NCBI GenBank assembly: GCA_041178185.1
Contig: JBEGVS010000005.1
Location: forward strand, 14,103-78,102
DNA length: 64,000 bases
Source of the DNA: Pseudomonadota bacterium
Lineage (GTDB): Bacteria; Bdellovibrionota_C; UBA2361; OMII01
Direction: 5' to 3'
The translations under genes and the position numbers were made by a program. Shown piece after piece: positions 23,548 through 31,530 of this stretch. How positions within the stretch are numbered: the stretch's first letter is position 1; each line of letters opens with the position of its first letter. A model generated the notes under the pieces. The model ran no database searches. It was not told the origin of the DNA and saw only the letters and a program-made list of their open reading frames with translations.

Positions 23548-24051
23548 CTACCGAGCAGGGGGGAGGGTAGATGCTATGTGTAGCACTGCGCCCGATTCTA
23601 CTCCGTATCGTTTCATGGTGCCGCTCGCAAATTCAAGCACATACATACTTGGCTTGCCTATCGTTCGGGGGAGCTCATTGAGCGGCGGAACGTCATGCAG
23701 AATACCCACAACCTTCATATCTTTACCCACAAAAACCATATCGAGGGGAATGTAGGTGTTCTTCATCCAAAATGAATTCTCCCGCTCCTGCGGAAAAACG
23801 AAGATCATTCCGGCATCTTGAGGGAGAGAGCGCCTATACATAAGCCCCATCGCACGCTCTCCATCGTTGGCGCATACCTCTAGACGAAACGGAGGGGTTT
23901 CAACACCAGCCATCGTTGTGAAATGTCCCTCGACCACTGGGAGTTTAGAGGTCGCAGAGCAGGCAGAAACAACAAACGAGACAACGCACCCCAGCAGGAT
24001 TAACGATCGGGATATACGGGCGAGAGTGCGGTACGCTAGTGGGAGCCGCAT
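23548..24051 (-). CDS. DUF192-family protein (exported)
   Basis: ATG at 24051 overlaps the ETF-alpha stop (TAATG). Signal/TM N-terminus. Core GLMYRRSLPQDAGMIFVFPQERENSFWMKNTYIPLDMVFVGKDMKVVGI matches the DUF192 (COG1430) pattern. Confidence 0.6.
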   Translation of the reverse strand: MRLPLAYRTLARISRSLILLGCVVSFVVSACSATSKLPVVEGHFTTMAGVETPPFRLEVCANDGERAMGLMYRRSLPQDAGMIFVFPQERENSFWMKNTYIPLDMVFVGKDMKVVGILHDVPPLNELPRTIGKPSMYVLEFASGTMKRYGVESGAVLHIASTLPPAR

Positions 24052-25037
24052 TACGACCGAAGCCCTCTCACCTTTTCCGTTAATTCGGGAGCGACAGCGA
24101 AGAGATCCGCCACCAATCCGTAGTCCGCTATCTCAAAGATGGGAGCATCAGGATCTTTGTTGATCGCGACGATAACCTTAGAGTCCTTCATGCCCGCAAG
24201 ATGCTGAATTGCACCCGAAATACCCACGGAGATGTAGAGGTTCGGAGCAACAACCTTGCCTGTTTGCCCGACCTGCCAATCGTTCGGGGCGTACCCCGAG
24301 TCCACGGCCGCCCGTGAAGCCCCGATCGCGGCACCGAAGGCATCAGCAAGAGGGAAGACTACCTTCTGAAAATTCTCCGCCGAACCGAGGGCTCGTCCAC
24401 CACTGACGACGATTGCAGCATCGGAGAGCTCAGGACGATCAGCCTTCGATATCTCGTACCCAACGATCTCTCCGAAGCGCTGCTGCTCATGAAGCTCAGG
24501 ATCCCCAGCCAGAGCAAGCTCAGCGCACTCGGAACCGCCGGCCTCTTGCGTGGCAGGCGAAAAGGCGGTCGAGCGCACGGATACGACTCGACTCGAAGAC
24601 AACAGCTCAACCTCAGCGATAATATTTCCGGCGTACATCGGTCGCTTCACCGAACCATCTGCATTCACACCGATGATGTCCGAGGCTTGCGCCGCATCGA
24701 GGAGTACGGCGACTCGAGGTAGTACATCTTTACCGGTGCTACTCGCAAGACCCACCACGGTTGACGCAGATAACTCCTTGGCGGCGAGCGCTATCCCTCG
24801 CGCGTAGGGCTCTGCTCGATACTTTTCGAAGAGAGCGTCCTCTGAGTATCGCACGCTGGACAATCCGTAGCCGAGCATCTCTTTGGCAGCAACCTGAGCG
24901 CCCGCACCGAGCGCGACCCCCACAATTTGATTGGCCTGCCAAGGCCCCTTGAGCTCCCGGGCTGCGCTCAAGGCGCTCAAAGTGCCCTTTAGAACCTTTC
25001 CATCCACGTGCTGAATAAAGAGTAGAATATTTCCCAT
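24051..25037 (-). CDS. etfA: electron transfer flavoprotein alpha subunit
   Basis: [23 protein letters not shown]..., the C-terminal FAD-binding region ([92 protein letters not shown]) is highly characteristic. Confidence 0.85.
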
Positions 25038-25049
25038 CGCGTCTATCCT

Positions 25050-25799
25050 TTAGAGAACCTTCGCTTCGTTCTGAAGCGCATCAACGAGCTCTTGAACGCT
25101 GGCCACCTTACGACCGGCCTTACGGGTGCCCGGCATCGAGAGCCCACGAACCTTGACCTTCACATCAGGCGACACACCCAAGGCATCAAGAGTAAGCACC
25201 TCAAAGGGCTTCTTCTTGGCCTTCATCAGATTTGGAAGCGCCGCATACCGTGGCTCGTTAAGGCGAAGGTCGGTCGAAACCACACAGGGCAACGGAATCT
25301 TGATCGTTTCGAGGCCCCCATCAACCTCTCGAGTCACGGTCGCCGCACCACCATCGACGACAACCTTAGAGGCGAAACACGCCTGCGGAAGGTTGAGACG
25401 ACCCGCTACGAGTTGCGCTGTCTGATTGGCGTCAGAATCGATCGCTTGCTTACCAAGCATAATCATCGAGTAATCTCCCCTCTTGAACACCTCCGCGATC
25501 ACTCGCGAAGCGAGGTCTGAGTCGGCAGCGCCGTCGTGCTTCACGAGTATGGCCGAGTCGGCTCCCATAGCGAGAGCGTACTCAAGACGCGCGCGAACAT
25601 CCTCTGGACCGACGCTCACGATAACGATCTCCGTCACTATCCCCTTCTCCTTCAGTCGGATTGCCTCCTCTACTGCGATCTCATCAAAGGTGTTGAGAAT
25701 CCACTTGATTCCATCGGTCTGGATACCGGAACCATCGGGAAGGAGTTTGAGCTTAAGCTGCCAATCAGGAACGCGTTTTACGGGAACAAGTATTTTCAT
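25050..25799 (-). CDS. etfB: electron transfer flavoprotein beta subunit
   Basis: MKILVPVKRVPDW...NTFDEIAVEEAIRLKEKG..EIVIVSVGP is the ETF-beta signature. A 12-nt gap separates it from etfA. Confidence 0.85.
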   Translation of the reverse strand: MKILVPVKRVPDWQLKLKLLPDGSGIQTDGIKWILNTFDEIAVEEAIRLKEKGIVTEIVIVSVGPEDVRARLEYALAMGADSAILVKHDGAADSDLASRVIAEVFKRGDYSMIMLGKQAIDSDANQTAQLVAGRLNLPQACFASKVVVDGGAATVTREVDGGLETIKIPLPCVVSTDLRLNEPRYAALPNLMKAKKKPFEVLTLDALGVSPDVKVKVRGLSMPGTRKAGRKVASVQELVDALQNEAKVL

Positions 25800-25995: not shown

Positions 25996-27414
25996 CTATC
26001 CGGTTGCGATCAAAGCCTCGGAGAAGGGAGGCCGTAGGAGACGCGCCCGACCAACCTTAGCCGCCTGAGCCAAGGTGGGATGGGTCTTCTCAAGTCGTGA
26101 GAGCTGATTGAGATGGTCTGCCGTCTGGCTCACCAAGCGCGCGACATCTCCGTCGGCGACCCCTGATAGTCGCAAGAACCCCGAGAACTCCTGCCAGGTC
26201 TCCGAATCCATCCACGTGATGACCGTCAACGCGGCATCAGGTAGGACCACCACCTCTGCACTCCCAGGGCCCTGGTACTGGGTTTTCACACGCTCAACGA
26301 TGTGAGACATCTGCTCAAAGAGCTCCTGCTTTATCGGATTCGCCTTGAGTCTAAAGTATGGTCGATGGGGATCCCCTGCGATACTCGCAACCAGTCCTAC
26401 CAACTCAAAAAGGGCGCAGTCGTCGAAAAGTTTATCGGAGATTGCCTCGGCCAACTCAAGCACTAGGCTCGTACACAGCTCGGCAGCCCAGTATCCCTTC
26501 TCGGTAAGACTTCCACCCTCGAGATATCCGAGAGCGCGCAATCCATCAAGGGACTGCAGCAAGGAGGTCTCCTGCTTCTGCTCAAGGTCATCGGCCTCTC
26601 GTAGCTTGCGGCGAATGCGCTTCTCCGCTTTTTTCCGCCTCTCGCCGCTTAAGCCCCTATCGCTCTCGCAGTTCTGCTGATCCGTAATCGCCTCCTCTCG
26701 GAGCCTGCTCGCATTTTTTCTATCCAGGAAAGCTGCGAGACTTCTCTCGACCGTGAACTGAAGGTCGTCCACATTTCGATAGCGAAGGAGGTTAAGAACG
26801 GTTGAAGGGGCTGCGAAGTATGAGGACCGCAAGGGCTCCGGCGGTCGCTTTGACACCTCAAGTAAGACCCGTGCGTCAGAGAATTTACTCGGTGTTATGA
26901 CACACACTCCGACGGCGTCCTTTCCTCGACGACCGGCCCGTCCAGCCATCTGCTGAAACTCAGAGGAGGATAACACACTGAAACCCTCCGAACCTCGCCG
27001 AGAGTGCGCCGTAACCACTACGGTTCGAGCTGGGAAATCAACCCCGGCGGCGACCGTTCCGGTGGCGATCATAAGTCGCAACATGCTGCGCGACATGAGC
27101 TCCTCGAGTAGCAGGCGCCAAATGAGAAGCTGCCCCGCGTGGTGCGCCCCCACCCCGGTTGTAATGAGAGCCTGATACTGGGGATAGCCCGTAATAAAGT
27201 CGGGGTCGAACCCGTACTTCGAGATCACGGCTTGAACTTCAGCCTCAAGTTGTTGTTGCCGTTGGAGCGGTAAGATCGCATGCGGGTTCCGAGATAGGCT
27301 CTCCACGTCCGAATCACACTGCTTCCGGGCGGTCCGAAATAAAATTGCCGGAAGTAACTCGTCCCGTTCAAGCTCTCGGAGAATCGTGTTTACAGGAAAA
27401 TCAGCGTACAACAT
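25996..27414 (-). CDS. Ski2-like (HelY/Mtr4-type) superfamily-2 RNA helicase, C-terminal part (RecA2 + winged-helix/ratchet region), 472 aa
   Basis: Motif VI QMAGRAGRRGKD and TAHSRRGSEGF (motif V region). Begins MLYADFPVNTILRELERDELLPAILFRTARKQCDSD, resembling the start of the Ski2 RecA2 domain. Its ATG overlaps the stop of the N-terminal part by 1 nt (TAATG). Confidence 0.65.
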   Translation of the reverse strand: MLYADFPVNTILRELERDELLPAILFRTARKQCDSDVESLSRNPHAILPLQRQQQLEAEVQAVISKYGFDPDFITGYPQYQALITTGVGAHHAGQLLIWRLLLEELMSRSMLRLMIATGTVAAGVDFPARTVVVTAHSRRGSEGFSVLSSSEFQQMAGRAGRRGKDAVGVCVITPSKFSDARVLLEVSKRPPEPLRSSYFAAPSTVLNLLRYRNVDDLQFTVERSLAAFLDRKNASRLREEAITDQQNCESDRGLSGERRKKAEKRIRRKLREADDLEQKQETSLLQSLDGLRALGYLEGGSLTEKGYWAAELCTSLVLELAEAISDKLFDDCALFELVGLVASIAGDPHRPYFRLKANPIKQELFEQMSHIVERVKTQYQGPGSAEVVVLPDAALTVITWMDSETWQEFSGFLRLSGVADGDVARLVSQTADHLNQLSRLEKTHPTLAQAAKVGRARLLRPPFSEALIATG

Positions 27415-28271
27415 TATCGTCCCCTCTTCCCACGACCACGAGTGCTTCCACCACGTTGACCGCGGCCCCCACGTCCCCGGCTGCCGCGCTCGGGCCGACC
27501 TCCATCTCGCTCAAATCGACCTTTCACACGAGTTCCCGTCTCATCCACCGACATCGAACCGTAGAAGTGTGCGACCTCTGGCGAAAGGTGTCCCTTCTCG
27601 TCTGCGAGCGGGATCACACCGAATTTCGGATGCATGAATCCAAAGCGAAGCTCAACCGGTCGATCCTTCTTCATGACGATTCGGCACTCTTTGTTTCGAG
27701 TTTCTTCGATCCACGCAGCGATCTCCTCTGCGTTCGATATGGACGCCGACAACATTAAGAGCGTTGAAGAGTGCGGGGTCAGGATGATGCTCTCCTCCCA
27801 CACCGCGCCCCGTTGAGGATCCGCGATGTAGTGAACCTCGTCCAGAATCACGAGCGAATACCGACCGGCCCCCTTATAGAGCTCGTTGCGATATATTTCG
27901 GTTGTGGCGATAACCACATCGGAATCACCCTCGATCTTGCGATCGCCGGTCAAAAGCCCAACGGAGTGATCAGGAGCGAAGATTCGCTGAAATTCGGTGT
28001 ATTTCGTGTTGGACAGCGCCTTGAGTGGCGTGGTGTAGACGGCGTGCTGCCCCTTCTTTATCAGATGGCGCATCGCCTCGATTGCGATGAAGGTTTTACC
28101 GGAGCCGGTTGGTGCCACCACGAGAGTGTCAATTCCATTCGCAAGGTTTTCGATGGCCTGCTTTTGGAAGTCATCGACGATGAAATCTTCTTTTTTCGGG
28201 ACACCGATACCCGATAGAAAGCGCTGTCGCGACTCCTCAATTGCACTATCTTTTAACATTGATCTCTTCAT
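27414..28271 (-). CDS. Ski2-like superfamily-2 helicase, N-terminal part (RecA1: motifs I, Ia, II, III) ending in an Arg/Gly-rich tail, 285 aa
   Basis: Motif I VVAPTGSGKT, Ia TTPLKALSNTKYTEF, II ILDEVHYI, III LSAS. Followed by RPVELRFGFMHP... and then GRPERGSRGRGGRGQRGGSTRGRGKRGR before the stop. Confidence 0.7.
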   Translation of the reverse strand: MKRSMLKDSAIEESRQRFLSGIGVPKKEDFIVDDFQKQAIENLANGIDTLVVAPTGSGKTFIAIEAMRHLIKKGQHAVYTTPLKALSNTKYTEFQRIFAPDHSVGLLTGDRKIEGDSDVVIATTEIYRNELYKGAGRYSLVILDEVHYIADPQRGAVWEESIILTPHSSTLLMLSASISNAEEIAAWIEETRNKECRIVMKKDRPVELRFGFMHPKFGVIPLADEKGHLSPEVAHFYGSMSVDETGTRVKGRFERDGGRPERGSRGRGGRGQRGGSTRGRGKRGR

Positions 28272-28274
28272 GCA

Positions 28275-29027
28275 TTACTCCATCACGGTCGGCTCAGCTG
28301 CGGGCGCGGGAAGCTCATACCGACAGGAGACAAAACTACGAACAAATACCGGCGCAGACTGCGCAAGCTCCTCAACAGATCCATCGAACGCTATCGTACC
28401 ATCAAAAAGGGCGAGAACTCGTTCAACGCACGGAAGTAGCCGACGCAGGTCGTGGCTCACCATGACGGTTGTTGGACGATACTCCCGATGAAGTTCTACG
28501 ATGAGATCCATGATAACGCTGCTCGCAACCGGGTCCAAGCCGCTTGTTGGATCGTCGAGAAGTAGGATGCGGGGCCGGCCAACTAATGCACGCGCCAAGG
28601 AAACCCGCCGACGCATACCACCACTCAACTGCCCGGGCATCTTCGACGCGGCTTTCACTAAACCGACACGAGCGAGGATGCGGCCGACCTTCTCACACAC
28701 CTCCTCTCGTACGTCACGGGGCAACGCGGTGGTTGGAACCTTTCCCCCCACAAGAGGGAAGGCAACGTTGTCGTAGACCGTCATCGAATCGAAGAGTGCG
28801 CCCTCTTGAAACATCAGCCCAACATCCGCCAGCGAGGCACCCTTCTCGAAGAGAACGGAGCCGTACTCACACCTGCAGGTGTTCGCAATAATCTTAAGCA
28901 GAACACTCTTCCCGCCGCCACTCGGGCCGATAAGCCCATTTATCGATGCCGGCTTCAAGGCGAAGCTGACGCCCTGCAGAACCGGACGGTCACCAAAGCT
29001 TCGATAGAGATCATTTACGCGCAACAC
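28275..29027 (-). CDS. ABC transporter ATP-binding protein (stand-alone NBD; MlaF/ABC-ATPase-like)
   Basis: GTG at 29027. Walker A GPSGGGKS, ABC signature LSGGMRRRVSLARAL, Walker B ILLLDDPTSGLD, H-loop VMVSHD. No permease gene is adjacent. Confidence 0.7.
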   Translation of the reverse strand: MLRVNDLYRSFGDRPVLQGVSFALKPASINGLIGPSGGGKSVLLKIIANTCRCEYGSVLFEKGASLADVGLMFQEGALFDSMTVYDNVAFPLVGGKVPTTALPRDVREEVCEKVGRILARVGLVKAASKMPGQLSGGMRRRVSLARALVGRPRILLLDDPTSGLDPVASSVIMDLIVELHREYRPTTVMVSHDLRRLLPCVERVLALFDGTIAFDGSVEELAQSAPVFVRSFVSCRYELPAPAAEPTVME

Positions 29028-29051
29028 GAAATACTTTCTTTCCTCTCTACT

Positions 29052-30113
29052 CTACGCGGAGTACATATCACATGAGACGTCAGTAGGTTCCGTTTCTTCA
29101 CCATGAATAGCCGCCGGACGCCAACGTCCCTCGCGCACCGCCACGAGGAGCGATTCATGATCCTTGAGCGTATTCAATTGTAGGAGCTGCTTCCGCCAGG
29201 GAGCGCCTCTACACATCTGCGAGGCGAGCTGCTTAAACTTTCCTCCGCACGCACTCTCTTGAAAGTCCTCTCGTAAAAGCTCCATGTACCGGAAGAGCAC
29301 ATCGAGCATCAGGTCATGATTACCCTTCAGACGAGAGGGCTGATCGTTCAAAATCTCAGAGAACACGAAGGGATTCATCATACTCGCCCGACCGATGAAC
29401 AGTCCGGCCACCTTCCCCTTTAACCGAGCCTCAGCGGTCTTGCGACACACAACATCACCGCTACCGAGAACCGGTATGGATAGGCGCTCAGCCACCTCCT
29501 GAACGAGGTCCCAATCAGCCTCTCCACGATAGAGCTGAGAGCGGGTCCGGCCATGTATCGCGAGCGCCTCGACCCCCTCTCCTTCAGCCATTGTGGCGAC
29601 TTCAAGGGCGTTCCTCGAACCGTCATCCCAGCCGGCGCGTATCTTAATTGTAAGCGGGATGGAGACAGCGCGTTTAACCTCTCTGATAATCTTTTGCAGG
29701 TGGTCGGGTTGCCGCATCAGCTCACATCCACCACCACGCTTCACAACTTTCGGCGCCGGACATCCACAATTGATGTCAACGAGATCGGCTCCTACATCCT
29801 GCACCATGAGCGCAGCGTCACGCATCCGATCAACGTCATACCCAAAAATCTGCACGCAGTAGGGACGCTCCTGCTCCGAGAACCTCATCATCTCAAGGGT
29901 CCGCTGAGAACCTCGGGTCATACCCTCGACCGAAACGAACTCACTTACCACCAACCCTACCGCTCCGGGGTTGAGCTCCTTGATCAGACGACGGAAAGGG
30001 CGCGTCGTCACTCCGCTCATCGGCGAGAGAACGAGACCTGGATTCACTTGGATATGGCGGATCTGATACGACTTAATCACACAAACACCCACGAACTTTT
30101 CTTGATAAAACAT
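29052..30113 (-). CDS. tRNA-dihydrouridine synthase (Dus family, TIM-barrel flavoenzyme)
   Basis: ATG at 30113. LVLSPMSGVTTRPFRRL..., VQIFGYD..DINCGCP..KVVKRGGG (the catalytic Cys loop) and the IPLTIKIR lysine region. Overlaps the upstream kinase gene by ~40 nt. Confidence 0.75.
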   Translation of the reverse strand: MFYQEKFVGVCVIKSYQIRHIQVNPGLVLSPMSGVTTRPFRRLIKELNPGAVGLVVSEFVSVEGMTRGSQRTLEMMRFSEQERPYCVQIFGYDVDRMRDAALMVQDVGADLVDINCGCPAPKVVKRGGGCELMRQPDHLQKIIREVKRAVSIPLTIKIRAGWDDGSRNALEVATMAEGEGVEALAIHGRTRSQLYRGEADWDLVQEVAERLSIPVLGSGDVVCRKTAEARLKGKVAGLFIGRASMMNPFVFSEILNDQPSRLKGNHDLMLDVLFRYMELLREDFQESACGGKFKQLASQMCRGAPWRKQLLQLNTLKDHESLLVAVREGRWRPAAIHGEETEPTDVSCDMYSA

Positions 30114-31530
30114 CTATCAGGAACGGCTTCTGAATAAAGTCCCTCCCACCACCGCTCAGGATACGAGCGACTACATCTCCCGAACTGAAACCGCTTACGA
30201 GGAGCACCCGAACATCCGGGTTCATCTTCTGTAAGCGGATGAACACATCCTCCCCCGAAAGACCGGGCATGAGGATATCTAAGATCACGAGATCAAACGC
30301 CCCTCGCTCCTCAGCATAGATCTCAAGCCCTTCTAGACCGGAGGACGCCATGACGACTTCGTATCCCAGGTGCGAGAGACTTAACCCGAGGACGTTACGA
30401 ACAGCGTACTCATCGTCAACTATCAGGATGCGTTCGCCACGGCCACGAACCGGCCCGCTCTCCTCAGAATCTCCGTCGACATGGGGAGACTCATCCGTAA
30501 CCGAGGGAAGAACGATGCGGAACTCAGTGCCTTTATGTTTTTCAGAGCGCACGACTATCGCGCCTCCGAGCTGCTTCACGATGGAGTGAACGGTGCTAAG
30601 ACCGAGACCGGTTCCGCCCTCCTTCTTGGTGGTGAAGTAAGGCTCAAAAAGACGCTCTTTGACCTCATCGTCCATCCCCTCGCCCGTATCTTTCACAACG
30701 AGCGCGCAATAGGTCGCGGCGGGGGGCTCCGCACCAAAAAGTTCGTGAACCTCCTCGGCGCTACATAGTCGGTCTACCGTCACCTCGATGGTGCCTCGCC
30801 CTTTGATGGCATCACGGGCGTTTACGATAAGGTTAATGATGACCTGACTTAGATAGGCCTCGGAGGCCATAACGAAGAGCGGGTTGCTGAGTGGGTCCCA
30901 AGCCAACCGTATCTCGGAGGGGATAGCGCTCTTTATGAGCGTTGAAATGCGAGAGATGATGTCGACCACGTCGATCCTGGTCGATATCTCTCCACCATCG
31001 ATTCGAGAGAAGCGCAGTATCTGCTGGGTCAGGGACGCGGCACGCAGCGCTCCCTCTTCGATTGCGGCGAGGGATTCAACGTGGCTCCCATCGCCCGGTA
31101 AAACGCTGCGCGCGTACGCAAGATGGCCGAGAATTCCGGTCAAGAGATTGTTGAAATCGTGAGCGACCCCTCCGGCTAACAATCCGAGGGTCTCAAGCCT
31201 TTGTCCGTGAAATACCTCACTGGCCCGGTCTTCGGAAAATGTCGAGAGGATTCGCACCAGGAGAAACTCCCCATCGAAGGTCGCTATTCTGACGAGCAAA
31301 GGTCCCCGTCCAGCCAACTGAAACTCGGTGGAGAACTCCCGATTACTCCACGGAATACGCTCGACCTCGGGCCAAAAGATGTGCGCGGGAGCACCCACGA
31401 GCTCATGAAGCTCAATGCCGAGCAAGGTGGCGAAGCTTGTATTGGCGCCCACGCAGGTGAGCTCTCGAGAGAGAACGCAGTGCGGCTCCGGTAAATTCTC
31501 AAGAATGGAGTGGACGAATGAATCAGACAT
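30073..31530 (-). CDS. hybrid sensor histidine kinase / response regulator (PAS - HisKA - HATPase - REC), cytoplasmic
   Basis: ATG at 31530. H-box LAGGVAHDFNNLLTGILGH. N/G boxes (IVNARDAI, DTGEGM, GGTGLGLS). C-terminal receiver RILIVDDE...DLVILDILMPGLSG..KPF. Confidence 0.75.
   Translation of the reverse strand: MSDSFVHSILENLPEPHCVLSRELTCVGANTSFATLLGIELHELVGAPAHIFWPEVERIPWSNREFSTEFQLAGRGPLLVRIATFDGEFLLVRILSTFSEDRASEVFHGQRLETLGLLAGGVAHDFNNLLTGILGHLAYARSVLPGDGSHVESLAAIEEGALRAASLTQQILRFSRIDGGEISTRIDVVDIISRISTLIKSAIPSEIRLAWDPLSNPLFVMASEAYLSQVIINLIVNARDAIKGRGTIEVTVDRLCSAEEVHELFGAEPPAATYCALVVKDTGEGMDDEVKERLFEPYFTTKKEGGTGLGLSTVHSIVKQLGGAIVVRSEKHKGTEFRIVLPSVTDESPHVDGDSEESGPVRGRGERILIVDDEYAVRNVLGLSLSHLGYEVVMASSGLEGLEIYAEERGAFDLVILDILMPGLSGEDVFIRLQKMNPDVRVLLVSGFSSGDVVARILSGGGRDFIQKPFLIDVLSRKVRGCLCD

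What the first reader, a model, noticed from the sequence alone, without database searches (positions are those of the whole stretch)
25996..28271. Ski2-like RNA helicase encoded as two ORFs split exactly between RecA1 and RecA2, with an RGG-rich tail on the first
ORF 27414..28271 carries motifs I-III and ends in GRPERGSRGRGGRGQRGGSTRGRGKRGR. ORF 25996..27414 starts on the overlapping TAATG and carries motifs IV-VI plus C-terminal domains. Eukaryotic Mtr4/Ski2 have a Gly/Arg-rich low-complexity insert at this same inter-domain position. This could therefore be either an authentic frameshift or pseudogene, a programmed frameshift, or a genuine two-polypeptide helicase. The Arg/Gly tail would be an RNA-binding element in any case.
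Basis: partly seen in the sequence, partly recalled or inferred. Interest (0 to 1): 0.5.

Follow-up and report, generated by a model that had tools for sequence, protein, structure and literature searches.

The report
Naturally split two-gene Ski2-like helicase
A bacterial relative of the eukaryotic RNA-decay helicases Ski2/Mtr4 is encoded here as two overlapping genes; the split is not an error, because about 80 related species keep it at the same disordered arginine/glycine-rich loop, and at least three other gene contexts carry a split at the same site.

Summary
On the minus strand, ORF1 (27414..28271, 285 aa) carries helicase motifs I-III and a roughly 40-residue Arg/Gly tail. ORF2 (25996..27414, 472 aa) starts on the overlapping TAATG and carries motifs IV-VI plus a DSHCT domain.

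It is a genuine two-gene helicase, not a frameshift, pseudogene or programmed frameshift.
- All 240 closest database proteins are half-sized.
- In 79 of 79 related species-level genomes that hold both halves (mostly Bdellovibrionota MAGs, 51-93% identity), an ORF1 homologue with a real stop sits directly upstream of an ORF2 homologue.
- All three stop codons and all three relative reading frames occur.
- dN/dS is 0.01-0.05 for both halves.

Sixty-one of 80 junctions lie within -4..+6 nt. The last Arg codons of the tail are enriched in AGG and form a Shine-Dalgarno-like site, so translational coupling is likely.

The tail sits where yeast Ski2 has its own RG-rich loop, and fused bacterial relatives have basic loops there too. 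Other lineages are split at the same loop: one without a tail, one with the gene order reversed.

Heterodimer assembly and RNA-helicase activity are inferred, not shown. I found no published description. Verdict: a new variant of a known kind, of moderate interest.

The parts
27414..28271 (-). helN (ORF1, 285 aa): RecA1 with motifs I-III, a conserved beta-hairpin plus short helix, and a disordered Arg/Gly tail. NCBI MEY4667642.1, named 'hypothetical protein'.
28092..28115 (-). Motif I (Walker A), APTGSGKT, ORF1 residues 53-60
   Evidence: Read from the translation. Invariant in alignments A2 and A3.
27831..27842 (-). Motif II, DEVH (DExH box), ORF1 residues 144-147
   Evidence: D144, E145 and H147 are invariant across 14 paired homologues.
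27741..27749 (-). Motif III, SAS, ORF1 residues 175-177
27606..27662 (-). RPVELRFGFMHPKFGVIPL (ORF1 residues 204-222): conserved beta-hairpin after RecA1 and before the tail. Probably the first strands of RecA2, supplied in trans to ORF2.
   Evidence: R204, V206, L208, R209, F212, P215, G218, P221 and L222 are invariant. AF2 predicts strands 207-214 and 218-221 with pLDDT above 90. It aligns to RPVPLEINIW..LIPV of Ski2. The assignment to RecA2 is inferred from the general SF2 fold and was not measured here.
27417..27542 (-). Arg/Gly-rich disordered tail, ORF1 residues about 244-285
   Evidence: AF2 pLDDT is below 50 from residue 243. R+G make up 27 of the last 45 residues, and 19-34 of 45 in all 120 homologues. 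It aligns to the yeast Ski2 RG loop. It resembles the RGG boxes of SERBP1, SmD1 and uS5 at marginal E-values. dN/dS is 0.05-0.28, against 0.01-0.05 for the cores.
27412..27426 (-). Coupling junction: Shine-Dalgarno-like GAGGGG (27426..27421) inside the last tail codons, stop TAA (27416..27414), overlapping start ATG (27414..27412)
   Evidence: Across 80 loci, 61 junctions lie within -4..+6 nt. An SD-like core lies 6-16 nt upstream of the start in 52 of 80. AGG makes up 30% of Arg codons in the last 5 codons against 9% elsewhere.
25996..27414 (-). helC (ORF2, 472 aa): the rest of RecA2 (motifs IV-VI), a winged-helix region, a two-helix hairpin and the DSHCT helical bundle. NCBI MEY4667641.1, named 'HelY: helicase'.
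27331..27351 (-). Motif IV, PAILFRT, ORF2 residues 22-28
   Evidence: Invariant in A1
27025..27063 (-). Motif V, TGTVAAGVDFPAR, ORF2 residues 118-130
   Evidence: Invariant in A1
26923..26952 (-). Motif VI, QMAGRAGRRG, ORF2 residues 155-164 (arginine finger region that completes the ATP site with ORF1)
   Evidence: Invariant in A1. That the ATP site is shared between the two chains follows from the general SF2 mechanism and is an inference.
26533..26739 (-). Two long antiparallel helices (ORF2 residues about 226-294), at the position of the Mtr4/Ski2 arch but without a KOW/fist module
   Evidence: AF2 helices 511-536 and 543-579 of the concatenated model, pLDDT above 95. No arch-domain Pfam hit. 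The best target-normalised TM-scores are to the shorter Mtr4 chains of about 700 modelled residues.
26026..26511 (-). DSHCT (PF08148) helical-bundle ('ratchet') domain, ORF2 residues 302-463
   Evidence: E 2.4e-14, 53.9 bits against a cut-off of 22.7. AF2 pLDDT above 90.

Best explanation
This is a genuine two-gene, two-polypeptide Ski2/Mtr4/HelY-type DExH helicase.

HelN (ORF1) carries RecA1, which holds the ATP-binding motifs I-III. It also carries a conserved beta-hairpin and ends in a disordered Arg/Gly tail. HelC (ORF2) carries the rest of the motor, motifs IV-VI including the arginine finger, plus a winged-helix region, a minimal two-helix arch and the DSHCT ratchet bundle.

The two genes probably lie on one mRNA and are translationally coupled. 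The stop and start overlap (TAATG), and the last purine-rich Arg/Gly codons of the tail double as the ribosome-binding site of helC. This would yield the halves in equal amounts and next to each other.

The halves then assemble into a heterodimer that rebuilds the four-domain helicase ring. The ATPase site forms at the HelN/HelC interface. Contacts from the HelN hairpin and from the DSHCT bundle probably hold the two chains together.

The gene was cut in the long, basic, disordered loop that the whole family carries between that hairpin and the helix before motif IV. The RG tail is the retained upstream part of this loop. It most likely serves as a flexible RNA-binding arm.

The cellular role is probably 3'-to-5' RNA unwinding in RNA processing or decay.

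Shown here: two intact genes, their conservation, purifying selection, the junction anatomy, and family and fold assignment. Inferred: coupling, heterodimer formation, the shared ATP site, RNA binding by the tail, and substrate and polarity.
For: Half-sized homologues only.
- ORF2's best 120 cluster representatives (60-100% identity) are mostly about 470 aa; none is longer than 492 aa and three are shorter fragments.
- ORF1's best 120 (65-100% identity) are 258-331 aa, and every one has an R/G-rich tail.

Genome context.
- In 79 of 79 species-level genomes that hold both halves, helN lies directly upstream of helC on the same strand and ends in a real stop.
- Stop codons across the 80 junctions (79 relatives plus the window) are TAA 39, TAG 29, TGA 12. 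Starts are ATG 65, GTG 12, TTG 3. Gaps lie within -4..+6 nt in 61 of 80.
- The relative frame of helC is -1 in 48 loci, 0 in 19 and +1 in 13. No single recoding event could fuse the two.

Selection. dN/dS is 0.01-0.05 for both cores with dS near saturation.

Coupling signals. An SD-like core lies 6-16 nt upstream of the helC start in 52 of 80 loci. AGG is 30% of Arg codons in the last five codons, against 9% in the rest of the tail and genes.

Family.
- DEAD and DSHCT Pfam hits.
- The best solved relatives of both halves are Ski2, Mtr4 and FRH.
- The AF2 model of the concatenated pair has mean pLDDT 81 and pTM 0.73, with the tail disordered. Its 34 best PDB fold matches are all Mtr4, FRH or Ski2, at E 1e-31 to 5e-21.

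Loop homology. The tail aligns to the yeast Ski2 RG loop. Fused relatives have basic loops of 42-133 residues at the same place.

Recurrence of the cut site.
- L081: same synteny, helN of 236 aa without a tail.
- P0248 contig and L084: other gene contexts.
- L082 and L083: helC placed before helN.

The nearest fused relatives are only about 35% identical.
Against: - No experiment and no inter-chain structure supports the heterodimer. The tools gave no coordinates, so I could not measure contacts.
- In the better model, the N-terminal half of RecA2 (concatenated residues 290-450) has low confidence. In the other model RecA1 is poor. The assembled geometry therefore rests on homology.
- Nineteen of 80 junctions have spacers of 9 nt or more or larger overlaps, and five exceed 80 nt. 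Tight coupling is common but not universal.
- L081 lacks the RG tail, so the tail is dispensable for a split helicase.
- The substrate is unproven. NCBIfam's nearest named models are Hel308 DNA helicases, although the scores are far below their cut-offs.
Confidence: 0.78

Rival explanations
1. The split is a recent frameshift mutation, a pseudogene, or a sequencing or assembly indel in a normally single helicase gene.
For: The two ORFs overlap by one base in different frames, which is what a 1-nt indel would produce. The more distant family members are single genes of 700-1000 aa.
Against: Every close homologue in public data is half-sized. Seventy-nine independently assembled species-level genomes carry the same split, with different stop codons, spacers and frames. 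Both halves have dN/dS of 0.01-0.05. The helC start codon and N-terminus are conserved.
Confidence: 0.02
2. A programmed -1 ribosomal frameshift, or stop-codon readthrough, produces a single fused helicase, with or without the separate halves.
For: ORF2's frame is open for 94 nt upstream of the ORF1 stop in the window. A G-rich SD-like element precedes the stop, and such elements stimulate some bacterial frameshifts.
Against: The window has no X XXY YYZ slippery heptamer in the overlap, and only 3 of 48 loci in the -1 configuration have one. The relative frame is -1, 0 or +1 in different species. In some species helC's frame is open for only a few codons upstream, and some have spacers of 14-438 nt. 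No common recoding mechanism could exist. helC has its own conserved start codon and SD. Two lineages have the gene order reversed.
Confidence: 0.03
3. Both genes are real, but the products do not rebuild one helicase. HelN would act alone as an RNA-binding, ATP-binding protein, and HelC would act as a separate adaptor.
For: No interaction data exist. HelN has its own RNA-binding-like tail. Isolated RecA1 domains can bind nucleotide.
Against: The two genes are strictly adjacent in 79 of 79 genomes and in all four other split gene contexts examined. Catalytic residues are invariant on both sides: Walker A and DEVH in HelN, motifs V and VI with the arginine finger in HelC. These residues are useful only if the two lobes form one ATP site, by the established SF2 mechanism. 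The HelN hairpin has no obvious role alone, yet it is invariant.
Confidence: 0.07
4. The split enzyme is a DNA repair helicase of the Hel308/HelQ kind rather than an RNA helicase.
For: The best NCBIfam models are Hel308 and 'ATP-dependent DNA helicase' equivalogs. Hel308, Hjm and PolQ are the second tier of fold matches.
Against: The NCBIfam scores (about 100 and 63 bits) are far below the Hel308 cut-off of 1200. The C-terminal domain is DSHCT, the mark of the Mtr4/Ski2/HelY branch. By both sequence and fold, Ski2, Mtr4 and FRH rank ahead of Hel308: E 1e-44 against 1e-20, and 1e-31 against 4e-18. From my own knowledge, the characterised bacterial relative M. smegmatis HelY is RNA-dependent.
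Confidence: 0.1

Closest known systems
Eukaryotic Ski2 / Mtr4 (Dob1) / FRH, the exosome-associated DExH helicases
   Same: DExH motifs I-VI. DSHCT helical bundle. Best sequence matches (E 4e-44 for ORF1, 9e-24 for ORF2) and best fold matches. A Gly/Arg-rich disordered segment at the same place as the yeast Ski2 loop, between the RPVPL hairpin and motif IV. Four-domain ring core as described for Mtr4 (PMC4267639).
   Different: The eukaryotic proteins are single polypeptides of about 1000-1290 aa with a large arch/KOW insertion and N-terminal partner-binding regions. Here the core is two polypeptides (285 + 472 aa), the arch is reduced to a two-helix hairpin, and there is no exosome context.
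Bacterial HelY (Mycobacterium Ski2-like helicase) and other fused bacterial DSHCT helicases
   Same: Same family name in public annotation. Same domain order. Fused relatives also have a basic loop at the cut position.
   Different: The fused relatives are single genes of 700-1000 aa and are at most about 35-40% identical over RecA2. The clade studied here is uniformly split. HelY biochemistry (RNA-stimulated ATPase, 3'-to-5' unwinding) is recalled from the literature and was not tested here.
Other naturally divided SF2 enzymes (Cas3'/Cas3'' of type I CRISPR systems; the split reverse gyrase of Nanoarchaeum equitans), recalled from general knowledge
   Same: A multi-domain helicase-containing enzyme is encoded by two genes whose products must assemble.
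   Different: In those cases the cut separates an accessory domain (HD nuclease, topoisomerase) from an intact helicase core. Here the cut passes through the motor itself, so the ATP site would be formed by two chains.
RGG/RG-box RNA-binding regions (for example SERBP1, SmD1 tail, uS5 N-terminus)
   Same: The composition and repeat pattern of the tail. These proteins are its only PDB sequence matches when the junction segment (tail plus flanks) is searched on its own, at E 0.03-0.2.
   Different: Those are eukaryotic and often arginine-methylated. Here the region is a bacterial C-terminal tail whose last codons also act as a ribosome-binding site. RNA binding is untested.

Membership tests
Ski2-like DExH helicases, Mtr4/Ski2/HelY (DSHCT) branch | SF2 motifs I, Ia, II (DExH), III, IV, V and VI all present and intact | tested here: met
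   APTGSGKT, TPLKALSN, DEVH and SAS in ORF1. PAILFRT, TGTVAAGVDFPAR and QMAGRAGRRG in ORF2. All are invariant among homologues.
Ski2-like DExH helicases, Mtr4/Ski2/HelY (DSHCT) branch | C-terminal DSHCT (PF08148) helical-bundle domain | tested here: met
   ORF2 residues 302-463, 53.9 bits against a cut-off of 22.7. Confidently modelled helical bundle.
Ski2-like DExH helicases, Mtr4/Ski2/HelY (DSHCT) branch | Overall fold closest to solved Ski2/Mtr4 structures | tested here: met
   The top 34 Foldseek PDB matches are Mtr4, FRH or Ski2, with E 1e-31 to 5e-21 and TMq 0.43-0.56. The model has a low-confidence stretch in RecA2.
Ski2-like DExH helicases, Mtr4/Ski2/HelY (DSHCT) branch | Arch (stalk plus KOW/fist) insertion | tested here: not met
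   No arch Pfam hit. Only two long helices occupy that position. This feature defines Mtr4/Ski2 proper, not the wider branch.
Ski2-like DExH helicases, Mtr4/Ski2/HelY (DSHCT) branch | Helicase core on a single polypeptide | tested here: not met
   Two genes with stop and start, conserved in 79 of 79 related genomes.
Ski2-like DExH helicases, Mtr4/Ski2/HelY (DSHCT) branch | RNA-stimulated ATPase and 3'-to-5' RNA unwinding | not testable with these tools
   Needs biochemistry with HelN, HelC and both together.
Hel308 / Hjm DNA helicases | Score above the NCBIfam equivalog cut-off; domain 5 helix-loop-helix instead of DSHCT | tested here: not met
   NF040935 scores 100.7 bits (ORF1) and 63.3 bits (ORF2) against a cut-off of 1200. 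The C-terminus is DSHCT.
Translationally coupled overlapping gene pair | Stop of the upstream gene overlaps or abuts the start of the downstream gene, with a Shine-Dalgarno site inside the upstream coding sequence | tested here: met
   TAATG in the window, with GAGGGG 6 nt upstream of the ATG. Sixty-one of 80 junctions lie within -4..+6 nt, 52 of 80 have an SD-like core, and AGG is enriched in the last 5 codons. Actual coupling of translation was not measured.
Programmed ribosomal frameshift site | Slippery heptamer in the overlap, and a conserved frame relation between the two ORFs | tested here: not met
   No heptamer in the window, and 3 of 48 elsewhere. Frame relation -1, 0 and +1 in 48, 19 and 13 loci.
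RGG/RG-motif disordered RNA-binding region | Clustered RG/RGG repeats in a predicted disordered segment | tested here: met
   R+G make up 27 of the last 45 residues, with RGRGGRGQRGG. pLDDT is below 50. Composition is conserved while sequence is not. RNA binding itself is not testable here.

The most novel reading that the evidence does not exclude
The motor core of HelY/Ski2-type helicases has been split repeatedly in bacterial evolution at one hot spot, the long basic disordered loop after the first RecA2 hairpin. This gave obligate heterodimeric helicases whose ATP site is shared by two polypeptides. Different lineages show different outcomes: a tail kept on HelN, no tail, a K/R tail, or reversed gene order with the basic region moved to the HelN N-terminus. 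In the Bdellovibrionota clade, the retained RG loop would have become both an RNA-tethering (possibly condensate-forming) arm and the ribosome-binding site that couples synthesis of the two halves. The RG loop of eukaryotic Ski2 would then be an inherited family feature, not a eukaryotic invention.
Probability: 0.4. Interest if true: 0.7.

Novelty: new variant of a known kind. Interest (0 to 1): 0.55.

Why it matters
- SF2 helicases are taught as two RecA lobes on one chain. A widespread, selected natural version with the lobes on two chains shows that the covalent link is dispensable. It also offers a ready-made system for asking what the inter-lobe linker contributes, such as coupling of ATP hydrolysis to translocation or autoinhibition.
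- It points to a conserved, basic, disordered loop shared with yeast Ski2. To my knowledge the function of that loop is unstudied. The bacterial tail can be deleted or swapped without touching the fold.
- It gives a clean example of dual-use coding sequence, where Arg/Gly codons also act as a Shine-Dalgarno site.
- It is a practical annotation warning. In the public record of this very sequence, ORF1 is labelled 'hypothetical protein' and ORF2 'HelY'. Automated pipelines could flag such pairs as pseudogenes.

Tried and rejected
2. A block alignment of half-sized rows was misaligned by MAFFT (A4; local tests).
   - A version with only 8 close ORF1 rows ran but gave a poor model: mean pLDDT 65, RecA1 unreliable.
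   - Adding 40 fused relatives as bridging rows fixed the alignment and gave pLDDT 81. The N-terminal half of RecA2 stayed at low confidence.
   - No coordinates are returned, so I could not measure inter-chain contacts or the packing of the HelN hairpin.
3. Literature searches for split SF2 or Ski2/HelY/DSHCT helicases in bacteria found nothing relevant. This covers the held library only.
4. Papers on the Ski2 and Mtr4 structures in the library did not state domain boundaries. The assignment of the hairpin to RecA2 therefore rests on my knowledge of the fold.
5. The promoter and terminator scan around the operon gave nothing above chance.
6. P0259 could not be located on a contig.
7. Considered and rejected: pseudogene or assembly error, programmed frameshift, membership of Hel308 (see rival explanations and membership test).
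Full report
**What is in the window**

On the minus strand, ORF1 (27414..28271, 285 aa) is followed by ORF2 (25996..27414, 472 aa). The junction reads ...GGA CGA TAA TG TTG..., so the stop TAA (27416..27414) and the start ATG (27414..27412) share one base and ORF2 lies in the -1 frame.

Pfam places a DEAD/DEAH domain on ORF1 residues 35-183. On ORF2 it places a weak Helicase_C match (112-164) and a DSHCT domain (302-463). Read directly, ORF1 has motifs I (APTGSGKT), Ia, II (DEVH) and III (SAS). ORF2 has IV (PAILFRT), V (TGTVAAGVDFPAR) and VI (QMAGRAGRRG).

ORF1 ends in GRFERDGGRPERGSRGRGGRGQRGGSTRGRGKRGR.

**Family**

Against all solved structures, both halves hit Ski2, Mtr4/Dob1 and FRH first (ORF1 E 4e-44, ORF2 E 9e-24). 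Brr2, Hel308 and PolQ come well behind. NCBIfam's nearest models are Hel308 equivalogs, but the scores of about 100 and 63 bits are far below the cut-off of 1200, so this is not Hel308.

I predicted the structure of the two products joined head to tail, using a block alignment that included 40 fused relatives as bridges. The model has mean pLDDT 81.4 and pTM 0.73.
- Residues 1-240 are above 90. This covers RecA1, a beta-hairpin at 207-221 and a short helix.
- Residues 243-290, the tail, are below 50 and so predicted disordered.
- Residues 450-750 are above 90. This covers the end of RecA2, the winged-helix region, two long helices at 511-536 and 543-579, and the DSHCT bundle.
- Residues 290-450 are poorly modelled.

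The model's 34 best PDB fold matches are all Mtr4, FRH or Ski2 (E 1e-31 to 5e-21). Hel308 and Hjm follow. The four-domain ring core (two RecA domains, winged helix, ratchet bundle) is the established architecture of this family (PMC4267639). No arch/KOW module is present; only a two-helix hairpin occupies its position.

**Is the split real?**

Yes. The evidence:
- *Homologue sizes.* The 120 best database clusters for ORF2 (60-100% identity) are mostly about 470 aa; none is longer than 492 aa and three are shorter fragments. The 120 best for ORF1 (65-100% identity) are 258-331 aa.
- *Genome arrangement.* A scan of one genome per species returned 80 loci, nearly all Bdellovibrionota, 'Oligoflexia' or 'delta proteobacterium' MAGs, with ORF2 identity of 51-93%. 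In all 79 that hold both halves, the ORF1 homologue lies directly upstream on the same strand and ends in a genuine stop.
- *Junction diversity.* Across the 80 junctions (79 relatives plus the window) the stops are TAA 39, TAG 29, TGA 12, and the starts are ATG 65, GTG 12, TTG 3. The distance from the ORF1 stop to the ORF2 start is -4 to +6 nt in 61 of 80.
- *Reading frames.* ORF2 sits at -1 in 48 loci, in frame behind the stop in 19, and at +1 in 13.
- *Selection.* Pairwise dN/dS is 0.01-0.05 for the ORF1 core and for ORF2, with synonymous sites near saturation. For the tail it is 0.05-0.28.

A mutation, an assembly error or a pseudogene cannot produce this pattern. Programmed frameshifting is excluded as a general mechanism for three reasons: the frame relation is not conserved, the window has no slippery heptamer, and only 3 of 48 loci in the -1 configuration have one.

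In a profile-free scan of 1.84 billion representatives, the split clade stands apart at 514 and 338 bits. The next hits, at 210 bits or less and 37% identity or less, are mostly fused proteins of 700-1000 aa whose RecA2 starts at residue 250-350.

**The junction as an expression device**

In the window, GAGGGG (27426..27421) lies 6 nt before the ATG, inside the codons for the last tail residues. Across the 80 loci, a GGAG/GAGG/AGGA core lies 6-16 nt upstream of the ORF2 start in 52.

AGG accounts for 30% of Arg codons in the last five codons of ORF1. It accounts for 9% in the rest of the tail and 9% in the rest of both genes. For AGA plus AGG the figures are 46% against 22-23%.

The end of the tail therefore appears to be selected at the nucleotide level as a ribosome-binding site. 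Together with the overlapping or abutting stop and start, this is the classical anatomy of translational coupling. Coupling itself is inferred.

**The tail and the cut site**

All 120 ORF1 homologues end in an R/G(/S/K)-rich segment, with 19-34 R+G among the last 45 residues. The sequence and length vary, and the segment nearly always ends in RR or RK.

HMMER aligns the window's tail to the yeast Ski2 segment GRGGSTARGGRGGSNTRDGRGGRGNSTRGGANRG. That segment lies between Ski2's RPVPL strand and its motif IV region.

Fused bacterial and eukaryotic relatives also carry a loop of 42-133 residues with 15-41% R+G+K at this place. Searched on its own with its flanking residues, the tail matches only RGG boxes (SERBP1, SmD1, uS5), at marginal E-values.

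The cut thus lies at the downstream end of a family-wide disordered basic loop. ORF2 begins with the helix that precedes motif IV.

Upstream of the tail, ORF1 keeps a strongly conserved RPVELRxGFxHPxxGxxPL hairpin, with nine invariant residues. In SF2 helicases the strand that follows motif III and the inter-lobe linker belongs to the second RecA lobe; this is from my knowledge of the fold. If that holds here, HelN donates the first strands of RecA2 to HelC, which would give an intimate interface. I could not verify this, because the tools return no coordinates.

**The same cut elsewhere**

About ten of the 150 best representatives are complete C-halves that begin at the same point. I looked up five of these (P0245, P0248, P0249, P0270, P0302); all have a separate DEAD gene beside them.
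- *L081.* Same neighbourhood (hybrid kinase, ABC ATPase, helN, helC). helN is 236 aa and ends right after the hairpin with no basic tail. The genes overlap by 11 nt.
- *A JGI contig (P0248).* helN of 287 aa, a 26-nt spacer and helC of 554 aa, in a different context.
- *L084.* helN of 262 aa with a K/R-rich tail, a 15-nt spacer and helC of 558 aa.
- *L082 and L083.* Two genomes with shared synteny, in which helC comes first and helN second. In L082 helN has an Arg/His/Pro-rich low-complexity region at its N-terminus; in L083 the corresponding region is Pro/Ala/Lys-rich.

Fission at this loop is therefore recurrent or ancient, and the RG tail is not obligatory.

**Context**

In the window, helN starts 3 nt after the stop of a generic ABC ATPase gene (28275..29027). 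Upstream of that gene lie a Dus tRNA-dihydrouridine synthase and a PAS-HisKA-HATPase-REC hybrid kinase. etfB, etfA and DUF192 follow downstream after a 196-nt gap. The ABC ATPase lies directly upstream of helN in 76 related loci, Dus in 57 and the kinase in 64. etfBA is present in only 27-29.

**Mechanism proposed**

One mRNA carries both genes. Ribosomes finishing helN re-initiate, or initiate nearby, on helC. The two chains then assemble into a Ski2-like ring. The ATP site forms between HelN motifs I-III and HelC motifs V-VI. RNA is threaded 3'-to-5' over the RecA lobes and the DSHCT ratchet. The RG tail acts as a flexible RNA-binding arm.

Shown: the genes, their conservation, selection, junction anatomy, family and fold. 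Inferred: coupling, heterodimer formation, substrate and tail function.

**Novelty**

Public annotation names ORF2 'HelY: helicase' and ORF1 'hypothetical protein'. Six literature searches and look-ups found no description of a split bacterial Ski2/HelY/DSHCT helicase. That is absence from the held library only.

Known divided SF2 enzymes (Cas3'/Cas3'', the Nanoarchaeum reverse gyrase; from my own knowledge) separate accessory domains from an intact motor. Here the motor itself is divided. I rate this a new variant of a known kind, of moderate interest.

Noticed in passing
window 28275..31530 (- strand); loci L001-L081: helN/helC sit at the end of a conserved same-strand gene string: PAS-HisKA-HATPase-REC hybrid kinase (30073..31530), Dus tRNA-dihydrouridine synthase (29052..30113), and a lone ABC ATPase with no adjacent permease gene (28275..29027, stop 3 nt before the helN start). 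The ABC ATPase lies directly upstream of helN in 76 related loci and in the deep-branching L081. Dus is there in 57 and the kinase in 64. I did not explore a possible functional link between the orphan ABC ATPase and the helicase.
   Followed up: partly
L082 3001..6070; L083 3001..6194: In two genomes with shared synteny (Lum_binding, MFS, helC, helN), the gene order of the split helicase is reversed, with helC first. In L082 helN has an Arg/His/Pro-rich low-complexity region at its N-terminus; in L083 the corresponding region is Pro/Ala/Lys-rich. In L083, helC is further broken into products of 487 and 136 aa.
   Followed up: partly
L081 2301..4386: A deep-branching member (41% identity) has the same neighbourhood and is split at the same point, but its helN is 236 aa and has no Arg/Gly tail. 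The genes overlap by 11 nt.
   Followed up: yes
L084 2197..4677; JGI contig carrying P0248: Two further split pairs in unrelated gene contexts. One has helN of 262 aa with a K/R-rich tail, a 15-nt spacer and helC of 558 aa. The other has helN of 287 aa, a 26-nt spacer and helC of 554 aa, next to Peptidase_M50 and Peptidase_S55 genes.
   Followed up: partly
L035 4001..4438: In one long-read MAG, a 219-bp unit that spans the junction (the last ~26 tail codons, the stop, and the first 46 codons of helC) is present in three tandem copies. This creates two 72-aa chimeric ORFs ahead of the full helC. It is either a real tandem duplication or an assembly artefact.
   Followed up: partly
window 23548..25799 (- strand): etfB (25050..25799), etfA (24051..25037) and a DUF192 gene (23548..24051) follow helC after a 196-nt gap. 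They are conserved downstream only in the closer relatives, 27-29 loci.
   Followed up: partly
protein P0149 (ORF1 homologue, 293 aa): One ORF1 homologue, 86% identical, has a tail of different composition (…GPRGIQAAQENGGRRSRGSHARIVEPR). It looks like the usual tail read in another frame, and is possibly a real or artefactual frameshift inside the low-complexity region.
   Followed up: no
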